Below, piece after piece: positions 29,401-32,400 of a stretch of 64,000 nucleotides of DNA. The DNA is from Escherichia coli (lineage in GTDB: Bacteria; Pseudomonadota; Gammaproteobacteria; Enterobacterales; Enterobacteriaceae). The stretch is from assembly GCF_051903065.1 (NCBI RefSeq), contig NZ_CP178438.1. One strand, written 5' to 3'. The position numbers are program-made. Every line of letters begins with the position of its first letter. Position 1 is the stretch's first letter.

Positions 29401-32400
29401 TCCCTTTCTGGCGAATGTGCCTGGTCAACTGGCAGCAGTGGCTATCGTGACCAGCGATGGCAACGTCTATAGTGCGGGTGACAGTGATTACCGCTTTGCG
29501 CTGGAATCCATCTCGAAAGTCTGTACGTTAGCCCTTGCGTTAGAAGATGTCGGCCCGCAGGCGGTACAGGACAAAATTGGCGCTGACCCGACCGGATTGC
29601 CCTTTAACTCAGTTATCGCCTTAGAGTTGCATGGCGGCAAACCGCTGTCGCCACTGGTAAATGCTGGCGCTATTGCCACCACCAGCCTGATTAACGCTGA
29701 AAATGCCGAACAACGCTGGCAGCGAATTTTACATATCCAACAGCAACTGGCTGGTGAGCAGGTAGCGCTCTCTGACGAAGTCAACCAGTCGGAACAAACA
29801 ACCAACTTCCATAACCGGGCCATAGCCTGGCTGCTGTACTCCGCCGGATATCTCTATTGTGATGCAATGGAAGCCTGTGACGTGTACACCCGTCAGTGCT
29901 CCACGCTCATCAATACTGTTGAACTGGCAACGCTTGGCGCGACGCTGGCGGCGGGGGGTGTGAATCCGCTGACGCATGAACGCGTTCTTCAGGCCGACAA
30001 CGTGCCGTACATTCTGGCCGAAATGATGATGGAAGGGCTGTATGGTCGCTCCGGTGACTGGGCGTATCGCGTTGGTTTACCGGGCAAAAGCGGTGTAGGT
30101 GGCGGTATTCTGGCGGTCGTCCCTGGCGTGATGGGAATTGCCGCGTTCTCACCACCGCTGGACGAAGAAGGCAACAGTGTTCGCGGTCAAAAAATGGTGG
30201 CATCGGTCGCTAAGCAACTCGGCTATAACGTGTTTAAGGGCTGATCATGATGAACACGGAAGGTAATAACGGTAACAAACCCCTCGGTCTATGGAATGTC
30301 GTTTCCATCGGCATTGGGGCAATGGTGGGGGCGGGGATCTTCGCGCTGCTGGGGCAGGCTGCGTTGCTAATGGAAGCCTCGACCTGGGTCGCCTTTGCTT
30401 TTGGCGGTATTGTGGCGATGTTTTCCGGTTATGCCTATGCGCGTCTGGGGGCGAGCTATCCCAGCAATGGCGGCATTATCGACTTCTTTCGTCGCGGATT
30501 AGGCAACGGCGTCTTTTCGCTGGCGCTCTCGTTACTGTACCTGTTGACGCTGGCGGTGAGCATCGCCATGGTCGCCCGTGCTTTTGGCGCTTATGCCGTG
30601 CAGTTTTTGCATGAAGGCAGCCAGGAGGAGCACCTTATTTTGCTCTACGCGTTGGGGATCATTGCGGTGATGACGCTTTTCAACTCCTTAAGCAACCATG
30701 CGGTAGGGCGGCTGGAAGTGATCCTCGTCGGCATTAAAATGATGATCCTGTTATTGCTGATTATTGCCGGTGTCTGGTCGCTGCAACCGGCGCATATTTC
30801 CGTCTCTGCGCCCCCCAGCTCCGGTGCGTTCTTCTCCTGTATCGGGATAACCTTCCTTGCCTATGCGGGCTTTGGCATGATGGCGAACGCGGCGGATAAA
30901 GTGAAAGATCCGCAGGTCATTATGCCACGGGCGTTTCTGGTGGCAATTGGCGTTACCACGTTGCTTTATATCTCGCTGGCGCTGGTTTTGCTTAGCGATG
31001 TATCGGCATTAGAGTTAGAAAAATATGCCGATACCGCCGTAGCGCAGGCAGCTTCTCCGCTGCTCGGGCATGTGGGTTATGTGATCGTCGTCATCGGCGC
31101 TTTACTGGCGACGGCTTCAGCCATCAACGCGAACCTGTTCGCCGTGTTTAACATCATGGACAACATGGGCAGCGAACGCGAACTGCCGAAGCTAATGAAT
31201 AAATCCCTGTGGCGGCAGAGTACCTGGGGCAACATCATTGTCGTGGTGTTGATTATGCTGATGACGGCGGCACTAAATTTAGGCTCACTCGCCAGCGTTG
31301 CCAGCGCCACCTTTTTGATTTGCTATCTGGCGGTGTTTGTGGTGGCAATCCGCCTGCGTCATGATATTCACGCCTCGTTGCCGATTCTTATCGTAGGTAC
31401 GTTGGTGATGTTGTTGGTGATCGTTGGCTTTATCTACAGCCTGTGGTCCCAGGGCAGCCGTGCGTTGATATGGATTATTGGTGCAATCTTACTCAGCCTT
31501 ATTGTGGCAATGGTCATGAAGCGCAATAAAACCGTATAACACCTCTCTGCGCGCAGTACTGCCTGTACTGCGCCTTTGTCTTTAATTCAAATTACCTTTC
31601 TTATTCCTTTAATAAATAAGTCACAAAAAAATGATATATACGCGATAAATCTGTGATGCTAATCACTTATTACCGTGGATTATTCTTAATGTGTATGATG
31701 GTAATCTAAAAGTCGTAGTGTATTCTAAATAAATAACGTATAAGCTTTTTAGCTGCATTTCTTTGCCCATATCAATGATCGACAAAAGAGATGCACAAGT
31801 TATTACCCTTCTTAATAAAATGAGACTGGTTATAAAAACCAGTTAAAATAATGAACTGGAAGGAAGTGACTTATCTATGGCGCGATTCCAGTTTAAAAGC
31901 CGTAAAAATAATGGGTTTATTTTTTTAATAAGTTTTATGGTGATGGGAGAAGCTACAATTGCTGCACCGCTGCCACAATGGGCGAACGCCCCAGCGGTAA
32001 CGCCAGTTGCCCAATTATCCTTACAGGAAAGTATATTACGCGCCTTTGCGCGAAATCCCGACGTCACTCAACAGGCGGCGCAGATAGGCATTGGCGAAGC
32101 GCAAATTGATGAAGCCAAAAGTGCCTGGTATCCGCACGTTGGATTAACCGGCAACGCGGGGCCGTCCCGACAAACGGACTCCAGCGGCAGGCTTGATAAC
32201 AACGTTTCGTATGGCATAACCCTGACACAGCTGGTGTATGACTTTGGTAAAACTAACAACGATATCAATCTGCAAACTGCCGCCCGTGACAGCTACCGCT
32301 TTAAATTGATGGCAACCTTAACCGATGTTGCAGAGAAAACGGCGACTGCCTACATGGAAGTCAGTCGTTATCAGGCTTTGTGCGATGCGGCTCAACGCAA

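What the first reader, a model, noticed from the sequence alone, without database searches (positions are those of the whole stretch)
31540..31876. AT-rich leader upstream of the secretion operon suggests nucleoid-protein silencing
The 337 bp after ybaT are far more AT-rich than the flanking genes. This is typical of horizontally acquired, H-NS-repressed adhesin loci, which are often silent under laboratory conditions.
Basis: inference. Interest (0 to 1): 0.35.

Follow-up and report, generated by a model that had tools for sequence, protein, structure and literature searches.

The report
Known promoter region of OI-28 adhesin operon
The AT-rich 337 bp after ybaT is real, but it is the already-studied control region of the E. 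coli O-island 28 giant-adhesin secretion operon, which is switched on by stationary phase, phosphate starvation and the regulator RstA rather than being silent, and its binding by H-NS is plausible but untested.

Summary
Observation confirmed: 31540-31876 is 32.6% GC, against 53.5% for ybaT, 51.9% for the TolC-family gene and 60.7% for the giant adhesin gene. It contains the deepest GC trough in the 64 kb window.

It is the intergenic regulatory region of O-island 28 (OI-28) and is 99.1% identical to the O157:H7 Sakai copy.

Published work on that copy shows an RstA box, found here exactly at 31583-31596, with EMSA, ChIP-qPCR and lacZ support. It also shows PhoB dependence, 55-fold RpoS dependence, and an 11- to 17-fold rise on entry into stationary phase. 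The operon is therefore conditionally expressed, not silent in the laboratory.

"Horizontally acquired" does not hold within Escherichia. The island sits at the same ybaT site in E. whittamii and in a cryptic clade. K-12-type genomes carry a deletion scar that keeps the 3' end of the island's last gene.

H-NS binding could not be checked, because no site list or hns-mutant data were reachable. Composition matches textbook H-NS targets. A long AT-rich leader recurs upstream of orthologous operons in six other genera without sequence similarity. The Lang H-NS motif is not enriched.

Verdict: known feature, interpretation partly supported, low novelty.

The parts
30247..31539 (+). ybaT (APC family permease), the core gene that bounds the region on the left
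   Evidence: ORF; RefSeq annotation of an identical strain
31551..31583 (+). ybaT intrinsic terminator: 9-bp GC-rich stem (31551-31573) plus a T-rich tail. The K-12 homology breakpoint lies inside it, at about 31567-31569
   Evidence: Terminator scan; stem kept in E1V33 and E. whittamii; K-12 junction alignment
31583..31596 (+). RstA box TAATTCAAATTACC, at -294 to -281 from the ATG; an exact match to the box shown by EMSA to be needed for RstA binding in O157:H7
   Evidence: Sequence; PMC12758282 section 8. This is the least conserved part of the region in other Escherichia species (identity 0.40-0.45)
31596..31672 (+). Array of Pho-box-like 11-bp units in phase: CTTTCTTATTC / CTTTAATAAAT / AAGTCACAAAA / AAATGATATAT / ACGCGATAAAT / CTGTGATGCTA / ATCACTTATTA. 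This is the candidate PhoB binding region
   Evidence: 5 matches of at least 12/18 to CTGTCATAWAWCTGTCAY against 1.16 in shuffles, 0.3% of shuffles reaching 5; best match 14/18 at 31607-31624. PhoB dependence of the operon is published (Yoshida 2010, cited), but the mapped box could not be read
31652..31667 (.). CRP-like palindrome TGTGA-tgctaa-TCACT (9/10); overlaps the Pho-like array, so its assignment is ambiguous
   Evidence: The only match with at most 1 mismatch in the 64 kb; half-sites are invariant while the 6-nt spacer differs in E1V33 and E. whittamii
31642..31651 (+). Single 8/10 match (GCGATAAATC) to the Lang H-NS high-affinity motif TCGATAAATT
   Evidence: 1 hit against 0.93 expected in composition-preserving shuffles, so it is not enriched
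31695..31726 (+). Promoter predicted by BPROM in Niu et al.: -35 ATGATG at 31695-31700 and -10 GTGTATTCT at 31718-31726. It lies in a block that is 0.9-0.98 conserved
   Evidence: PMC12758282; my PWM scan lists ATGGTA-17-TATTCT, with both hexamers identical in all four Escherichia sequences; conservation. The transcription start is not mapped here
31792..31821 (+). Alternative proximal promoter-like pair TGCACA-18-TAAAAT, in a 100%-conserved block; the -10 reads TAAAAC in O157
31825..31843 (+). 7-bp hairpin ACTGGTT-ataaa-AACCAGT; pairing is retained through G.U pairs in other Escherichia species, suggesting an RNA-level element if this stretch is transcribed
   Evidence: fold z-score only -1.86; no compensatory changes
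31860..31879 (+). Shine-Dalgarno AAGGAAG (31860-31866) and start codon ATG (31877-31879) of the TolC-family gene
   Evidence: 0.98 conserved
31877..33232 (+). TolC-family outer membrane protein (tolC28 / Z0608 / ECs_0540 orthologue), first gene of the operon
33335..54112 (+). Intact 6925-aa BapA/SiiE-related giant T1SS adhesin ('siiEA'); colinear with O157 ECs_0541 plus ECs_0542
54116..56277 (+). T1SS ABC permease/ATPase gene, frameshifted here by a 1-nt deletion near 55513
56274..57449 (+). HlyD-family membrane fusion protein; its last ~90 nt persist in K-12 as the ybaT-cueR spacer

Best explanation
The 337-bp AT-rich stretch is the promoter and regulatory region, and possibly part of the 5' leader, of the O-island 28 operon. 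That operon comprises a TolC-family gene, a giant BapA/SiiE-like adhesin gene, an ABC exporter gene and a membrane fusion protein gene.

From left to right the stretch holds:
- the ybaT terminator;
- the published RstA box;
- a phased array of Pho-box-like units that overlaps a CRP-like palindrome;
- two strongly conserved blocks with weak sigma-70/sigma-S type promoter candidates;
- a small hairpin and the ribosome binding site.

The promoter is intrinsically weak and conditional. It is off in exponential growth and is turned on by RpoS in stationary phase, by PhoB under phosphate starvation, and by RstA in response to calcium.

Shown by others on the 99.1%-identical O157 copy: RstA binding and activation, PhoB dependence, RpoS dependence and growth-phase induction.

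Shown here: the identity of the element, its anatomy, block-wise purifying selection, the ancestral status of the island in Escherichia, and a long AT-rich leader as a shared trait of orthologous operons.

Inferred only: that H-NS/StpA coats this roughly 400-bp AT-rich patch and contributes to the off state, with the far-upstream response-regulator sites and sigma-S acting partly by counter-silencing. I put that sub-claim at about 0.5.
For: Identity:
- The intergenic region is 337 bp and 99.1% identical in O157:H7 Sakai between ybaT and ECs_0540.
- The RstA box TAATTCAAATTACC is exact at -294 to -281.

Published regulation of the orthologue:
- RstA, by EMSA, ChIP-qPCR and lacZ.
- RpoS: 55-fold for Z0608 and 20-fold for Z0609.
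- Stationary-phase induction of log2 3.52 and 4.11.
- PhoB.

Pho-like motifs are enriched: 5 hits against 1.16 in shuffles, with 0.3% of shuffles reaching 5, and they fall in 11-bp phase.

Purifying selection: intergenic identity to E1V33 and E. whittamii is 0.79, with blocks at 0.9-1.0, against 0.65-0.69 at four-fold sites of ybaT and glsA.

For the H-NS sub-claim:
- GC 0.326 and TpA 0.113 equal or exceed known H-NS-bound K-12 intergenic regions, and are well below ordinary intergenic regions in the window (0.38-0.42).
- Upstream regions of 24 orthologous operons in Enterobacter, Lelliottia, Budvicia, Rosenbergiella, Trabulsiella and Pseudocitrobacter have median GC 0.333 and median length 629 bp. 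Other intergenic regions of the same loci have 0.439 and 190 bp (Mann-Whitney p = 3e-6; not phylogenetically independent).
- These upstream regions show no sequence similarity to the E. coli one and sit next to different neighbours.
- The RstA box lies at least ~100 bp upstream of every conserved promoter candidate, which is atypical for contact activation.
- The related Salmonella SPI-4 T1SS operon is bound by H-NS and relieved by HilA (PMC12607715).
Against: - No H-NS occupancy or hns-mutant expression data for this locus could be obtained.
- The Lang nucleation motif is not enriched beyond composition (1 hit against 0.93 expected).
- The AT-rich patch is short (about 400 bp) and is flanked by DNA of 52-61% GC. 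The mean H-NS region in Sakai is 1643 bp, so extended filament spreading is unlikely.
- The operon is well expressed in wild type in stationary phase, so any silencing is conditional.
- Much of the AT-richness could be accounted for by AT-rich activator sites, T-tracts and promoter elements alone.
- The transcription start was not mapped here, and the promoter hexamer candidates are all weak (at most 7 bits).
- In this particular strain the ABC exporter gene is frameshifted, so regulation may no longer matter functionally.
Confidence: 0.85

Rival explanations
1. Classical xenogeneic silencing. A recently acquired adhesin island is held silent by H-NS under laboratory conditions, with the AT-rich leader as the nucleation site.
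For: Composition is in the range of known H-NS targets. The AT-rich leader recurs across orthologues. The SPI-4 analogue is H-NS bound. One match carries the core CGATAAAT of the Lang motif.
Against: The island is ancestral in Escherichia, and K-12-type genomes are deletion derivatives. The island body is 60.7% GC, above the window average, so it is not the AT-rich foreign DNA that H-NS targets. The wild type expresses the genes strongly in stationary phase, under phosphate starvation and in DMEM. The motif is not enriched. No H-NS data were found.
Confidence: 0.15
2. Purely activator-driven promoter with no role for nucleoid proteins. The AT-richness is a by-product of densely packed AT-rich binding sites (PhoB boxes, the RstA box, CRP-like and UP-like sequence), the terminator T-tail and a weak promoter.
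For: The Pho-box consensus is itself AT-rich, and 77 bp of the region fits a phased Pho-like array. There are an RstA box and a CRP-like site. Conserved blocks cover most of the region. The known regulators suffice to explain the reported expression pattern.
Against: Orthologous operons in other genera lack these particular sites, yet keep even longer leaders of equally low GC. This suggests that composition itself is maintained. The two poorly conserved segments (31577-31599 and 31759-31788) are still AT-rich. The RstA site is far upstream of all promoter candidates.
Confidence: 0.4
3. Long 5' untranslated leader with a cis-acting RNA structure. Transcription starts near 31706-31733, and the conserved segment 31797-31813 (GTTATTACCCTTCTT) pairs with the Shine-Dalgarno region 31860-31876 to limit translation of the TolC-family gene.
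For: RNAalifold predicts this pairing, and both arms are 98-100% conserved. The internal hairpin 31825-31843 keeps pairing through G.U changes in two species.
Against: There is no compensatory (double) change in any pair. The fold z-score is only -1.86. There is no Rfam match at E of 1 or less. The transcription start is unknown, and a conserved promoter-like pair (31792-31821) lies inside the proposed 5' arm. Sequence conservation is equally explained by protein binding sites.
Confidence: 0.15
4. An unannotated small gene or small RNA lies in the spacer.
For: There is a 40-codon ORF on the minus strand at 31663-31785 and a terminator-like hairpin on the minus strand at 31843-31825.
Against: The ORF starts with TTG inside the least conserved segment (31759-31788, identity 0.42-0.45). 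There is no Rfam hit. No feature is annotated there in 958 RefSeq genomes.
Confidence: 0.03

Closest known systems
Regulatory region of tolC28 (z0608 / ECs_0540) of O-island 28 in EHEC O157:H7 (Niu et al. 2025, PMC12758282; Yoshida et al. 2010, PMID 20640580)
   Same: Same locus, same 337-bp length, 99.1% identity and an identical RstA box at -294 to -281. The gene order ybaT, TolC-family gene, giant adhesin, ABC exporter, membrane fusion protein, cueR is also the same.
   Different: The window strain has an intact single 6925-aa adhesin gene where O157 has an in-frame stop that splits it into 'rtxA28' and 'rtxB28'. It has a frameshifted ABC exporter gene where O157's is intact. It has T instead of C at 31821, in the candidate proximal -10.
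Salmonella SPI-4 siiABCDEF promoter (H-NS bound, relieved by HilA; RfaH/ops dependent)
   Same: The control region of a T1SS operon for a giant Ig-repeat adhesin. Expression is conditional and depends on an activator.
   Different: There is no ops element in this leader. The regulators differ (RstA, PhoB and RpoS rather than HilA and SprB). The gene order differs, with the TolC-family gene first and no siiAB. H-NS binding is not demonstrated here. SPI-4 itself is AT-rich, whereas this island body is 60.7% GC (the SPI-4 composition is from general knowledge, not tested here).
Sigma-S-selective, H-NS-repressed E. coli promoters such as hdeAB, csgD/csgBA and the gadE region
   Same: Similar intergenic composition (GC 0.33-0.36), stationary-phase and RpoS dependence, and input from OmpR-family response regulators.
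   Different: H-NS repression of those promoters is established knowledge. For this one it is only inferred.
Pho regulon promoters (pstS, phoA, ugpB) with tandem Pho boxes replacing the -35 element
   Same: 11-bp phased units resembling CTGTCAT-AAAA, followed about 12 bp later by a TATTCT -10-like hexamer at 31681-31686. PhoB dependence is published.
   Different: The best box matches only 14/18. The array overlaps a CRP-like palindrome. The box mapped by Yoshida et al. could not be read, so correspondence is unverified.

Membership tests
OI-28 tolC28 regulatory region (RstA-activated) | Lies between ybaT and the TolC-family first gene of the T1SS/giant adhesin operon | tested here: met
OI-28 tolC28 regulatory region (RstA-activated) | Sequence orthology to the O157:H7 region | tested here: met
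   337/337 bp aligned at 99.1% identity to Sakai and other O157 genomes
OI-28 tolC28 regulatory region (RstA-activated) | RstA box TAATTCAAATTACC at -294 to -280 | tested here: met
   Exact match at 31583-31596, which is -294 to -281 from the ATG at 31877
OI-28 tolC28 regulatory region (RstA-activated) | RstA binding and activation in this strain | not testable with these tools
   Shown only for EDL933 in PMC12758282
H-NS-silenced xenogeneic locus | AT content well above the genome average over hundreds of bp | tested here: met
   GC 0.326 over 337 bp and 0.291 over 31602-31938; comparable to csgD-csgB, hdeA-hdeD and gadE upstream regions. This is met for the promoter patch only; the island body is 60.7% GC
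H-NS-silenced xenogeneic locus | H-NS occupancy in vivo (ChIP) | not testable with these tools
   Sakai ChIP-chip exists (PMC4764244), but no site list is held; no paper links OI-28 and H-NS
H-NS-silenced xenogeneic locus | Derepression in an hns mutant; silence in wild type | tested here: not met
   The hns-mutant half is untested. The 'silent in wild type' half is contradicted by published expression
H-NS-silenced xenogeneic locus | Recent horizontal acquisition relative to close relatives | tested here: not met
   Same insertion site in E. whittamii and Escherichia sp. E1V33; K-12-type junction is a deletion scar shared by 4459 genomes. Different neighbours in other genera suggest older transfer between genera
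H-NS-silenced xenogeneic locus | High-affinity nucleation motif (tCGATAAATT) | tested here: inconclusive
   One 8/10 match at 31642-31651; shuffles give 0.93 on average
Pho regulon promoter | Tandem 11-bp Pho boxes about 10 bp upstream of a -10 element | tested here: inconclusive
   Enriched weak matches in phase, best 14/18; TATTCT lies 12 bp after the last unit; the published box could not be read
CRP-dependent promoter | TGTGA-N6-TCACA site at a helical-phase distance from the start site | tested here: inconclusive
   9/10 match at 31652-31667, with half-sites conserved and the spacer variable; start site unknown; overlaps the Pho-like array
RfaH/ops-dependent long-operon leader (hlyCABD, SPI-4) | ops element GGCGGTAGnnTG in the leader | tested here: not met
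   No match with at most 1 mismatch in 31540-31876 or 33233-33334. The nearest plus-strand match, GGCGGTAGGTGG, is inside the adhesin gene at 33748
Rfam cis-regulatory RNA or sRNA | Covariance-model match | tested here: not met
   No match at E of 1 or less in 31000-33600

The most novel reading that the evidence does not exclude
A long AT-rich leader, maintained by composition rather than by sequence, is a conserved design feature of TolC-first giant-adhesin T1SS operons across Enterobacterales. It serves as an H-NS/StpA landing pad. In E. coli the OmpR-family regulators RstA and PhoB, together with sigma-S, act on it mainly as counter-silencers rather than as classical activators. That would explain the far-upstream, poorly conserved RstA box.
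Probability: 0.35. Interest if true: 0.4.

Novelty: already known. Interest (0 to 1): 0.2.

Why it matters
OI-28 has recently been reported as a colonisation factor of EHEC O157:H7, and about 18% of complete E. coli genomes carry it. Knowing that its control region is a conditional, multi-input promoter, rather than a silenced relic, guides the choice of growth conditions for studying the adhesin.

If H-NS does coat the region, RstA and PhoB would join the list of counter-silencers, and the published 3- to 5-fold RstA effect would need reinterpreting.

The evolutionary result also corrects the usual description of OI-28 as an acquired pathogenicity island. The island is ancestral, and a single deletion allele is present in about 82% of complete genomes.

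Tried and rejected
- **Rfam.** A scan of 31000-33600 at E of 1 or less found nothing.
- **Small ORF.** The minus-strand 40-codon ORF was rejected because its start lies in the least conserved segment.
- **ops/RfaH element.** It is absent from the leader.
- **H-NS motifs.** Neither the Lang nor the Bouffartigues motif is enriched over shuffles.
- **Canonical RstA consensus.** TACATNTNGTTACA has no match of 9/12 or better. The box in Niu et al. is a looser TAAT-N6-TACC form.
- **RBS-sequestering hairpin.** The pair 31854-31861 / 31886-31893 is not conserved in E1V33 or E. whittamii.
- **Literature.** I could not obtain Yoshida 2010 or an H-NS site list for Sakai. Searches for OI-28 with H-NS and for all locus tags gave no hns data.
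- **Distant orthologues.** Pho and CRP motif scans in their leaders found none, and there is no nucleotide similarity outside Escherichia.
- **Promoter PWM scan.** It gave only weak, non-discriminating candidates, so I do not commit to a start site.
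Full report
**What is there**

The window is E. coli chromosome. The gene order is copA, glsA and ybaT, then a TolC-family outer membrane protein gene (31877-33232) and a 6925-codon BapA/SiiE-related adhesin gene (33335-54112). 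These are followed by a type I secretion ABC permease/ATPase gene (54116-56277), a HlyD-family adaptor gene (56274-57449) and cueR. This is O-island 28 (OI-28) of EHEC O157:H7 (z0608-z0635, ECs_0540-0544). The finding's coordinates are exactly the ybaT / TolC-family intergenic region.

**Observation**

- GC of 31540-31876 is 0.326. The neighbours are ybaT at 0.535, the TolC-family gene at 0.519, the adhesin gene at 0.607 and the whole window at 0.551.
- Only 0.43% of 337-bp windows are as GC-poor, and the 64-kb minimum (0.291) is at 31602-31938.
- Among the nine intergenic regions of at least 150 bp in the window (median GC 0.41) it ranks second lowest.

The excess over ordinary intergenic DNA is about 8 GC points.

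**It is a known, studied element**

The region has the same length in 958 of 5426 complete E. coli genomes at 95-100% identity, and 99.1% identity to O157:H7. Published work on the O157 copy shows the following.

- Niu et al. 2025 (PMC12758282) showed that RstA activates the operon 3- to 5-fold. RstA bound the region in ChIP-qPCR and EMSA, and binding needed the box TAATTCAAATTACC at -294 to -280. That box is present exactly at 31583-31596, which is -294 to -281 from the ATG.
- Dong and Schellhorn 2009 (PMC2907692) found Z0608 55-fold and Z0609 20-fold RpoS-dependent in stationary phase. Wild-type signal was log2 10.8.
- Bergholz et al. 2007 (PMC2241611) found ECs0540 and ECs0541 up by log2 3.52 and 4.11 at entry into stationary phase.
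- Yoshida et al. 2010 identified ecs0540-0544 as PhoB-activated Pho regulon genes. I could only see this through citations, because the paper itself is not held.

None of these papers mentions H-NS, and no paper in the library pairs OI-28 with H-NS.

**Anatomy found here**

- **Terminator.** A 9-bp GC-rich hairpin with a T tail at 31551-31583 ends ybaT.
- **Pho-like array.** From 31596 to 31672 there are seven 11-bp units in phase that resemble Pho boxes. Five matches of at least 12/18 compare with 1.16 in shuffles, and 0.3% of shuffles reach five; the best match is 14/18.
- **CRP-like palindrome.** TGTGA-N6-TCACT at 31652-31667 overlaps that array. It is the only match with at most one mismatch in the 64 kb. 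Its half-sites are invariant while the spacer differs in two other Escherichia species. The site could belong to PhoB or to CRP, and I cannot decide which.
- **Promoter candidates.** All are weak. Two are fully conserved across Escherichia. One is ATGGTA-17-TATTCT (31698-31726), essentially the BPROM prediction of Niu et al. The other is TGCACA-18-TAAAAT (31792-31821).
- **Hairpin and ribosome binding site.** A 7-bp hairpin lies at 31825-31843, and the Shine-Dalgarno sequence at 31860-31866 follows it.
- **Negative results.** There is no Rfam match and no ops element.

**Selection**

Against Escherichia sp. E1V33 and E. whittamii, four-fold sites of ybaT and glsA are 0.65-0.69 identical. The intergenic region is 0.79 identical overall. 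Blocks at 31600-31650, 31690-31760 and 31785-31877 reach 0.9-1.0.

Two segments are poorly conserved (0.40-0.45). They are 31759-31788 and, notably, 31577-31599, which contains the RstA box.

**Origin**

The island sits at the same ybaT site in E1V33 and E. whittamii. The K-12 ybaT-cueR spacer is homologous to the window for about 38 nt after ybaT. It then jumps to the last ~90 nt of the HlyD-family gene, so K-12 is a deletion derivative. That same junction occurs in 4459 of 5426 genomes.

'Horizontally acquired' is therefore wrong within Escherichia. Orthologous operons in other genera have different neighbours: a DeoR-family regulator, an MscS-like channel or an Fe-dependent alcohol dehydrogenase. 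Older transfer between genera is thus likely.

**Does H-NS bind?**

This is untested. In favour:

- Composition (GC 0.326, TpA 0.113 per step) equals or exceeds K-12 regions that are established H-NS targets: csgD-csgB 0.345, hdeA-hdeD 0.331, hdeD-gadE 0.361 and proV 0.385. Ordinary intergenic regions in the window are 0.38-0.42. That those K-12 regions are H-NS targets is established knowledge, not tested here.
- In 24 orthologous loci from six other genera, the region upstream of the TolC-family gene has median GC 0.333 and median length 629 bp. Other intergenic regions of the same loci have 0.439 and 190 bp (p = 3e-6; not phylogenetically independent). This holds without sequence similarity to the E. 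coli region or shared Pho/CRP sites.
- The RstA site is far upstream of every conserved promoter candidate.
- RpoS-dependent promoters are often H-NS targets (general knowledge).
- SPI-4 is H-NS bound.

Against:

- The Lang motif is not enriched.
- The AT-rich patch is only about 400 bp, inside DNA of 52-61% GC.
- The operon is clearly expressed in wild type under several laboratory conditions.

I estimate about 0.5 that H-NS contributes to the off state, and about 0.7 that it binds at all.

**Verdict**

'Silent' and 'horizontally acquired' are not supported. The H-NS proposal is a reasonable but unverified add-on to an already characterised promoter. Novelty is low.

Noticed in passing
window 54116-56277 (site near 55513): The T1SS ABC permease/ATPase gene carries a 1-nt deletion (AAA to AA) relative to O157 Sakai ECs_0543, which splits it into ORFs 54116-55873 and 55519-56277. 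RefSeq flags the same gene as frameshifted in the near-identical strain 23CRST027. The secretion system is probably non-functional in this lineage.
   Followed up: partly
window 33335-54112; L003 6355-26823: The two 'RTX genes' of O157 (ECs_0541/ECs_0542, called rtxA28/rtxB28 in Niu 2025) are colinear at ~95% identity with the single intact 6925-codon gene here. They are separated by one in-frame stop (NSDN*THTV against NSDNETHTV), so they look like fragments of one giant adhesin gene.
   Followed up: partly
window 31540-31569 and 57355-57449; L002 4870-4993: The K-12 ybaT-cueR spacer is a deletion scar that retains the last ~90 nt of the island's HlyD-family gene. The same junction is in 4459 of 5426 complete E. 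coli genomes, while 958 carry the island. This looks like a two-allele polymorphism with the island as the ancestral state.
   Followed up: yes
window 61679-62026: A second very AT-rich intergenic region (GC 0.313, the lowest in the window) lies upstream of a 600-codon YadA-like trimeric autotransporter gene (59876-61678, minus strand). It sits in a further insertion between cueR and ybbJ, next to a 409-aa protein with no Pfam match (57854-59083, minus strand).
   Followed up: no
window ~31835 (strain ECNB21-M121, NZ_CP083585.1); L030 3779-4001: Natural disruptions of this control region exist. One strain has an IS1 inserted about 40 bp upstream of the ATG. Another E. coli (SCPM-O-B-8794) has a deletion running from intergenic position ~201 into codon ~168 of the TolC-family gene.
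   Followed up: no
window 31591-31603 and 31802-31814: The 13-mer ATTACCyTTCTTA occurs twice, 211 bp apart. The first copy overlaps the RstA box. The second lies in a 100%-conserved block, follows a CACA-N6-TACC pattern like the RstA box, and is complementary to the Shine-Dalgarno region. It could be a second RstA site or an anti-SD segment.
   Followed up: partly
window 31821 vs L003 4841: The candidate proximal -10 hexamer is TAAAAT here and in E1V33 and E. whittamii, but TAAAAC in O157 Sakai. If that promoter is used, this would be a change at the most critical -10 position.
   Followed up: no
L008 4001-5269 vs L005: The E. whittamii TolC-family protein is only 70% identical to the window's, while the adjacent ybaT (96%) and the adhesin N-terminus (92%) are close. 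This suggests allelic replacement or recombination confined to the TolC-family gene.
   Followed up: no
L004 (contig labelled Collinsella sp. MAG) and L033 (Bacillota MAG): Contigs 99% identical to this E. coli locus are deposited under Gram-positive MAG names. This is almost certainly binning contamination.
   Followed up: no
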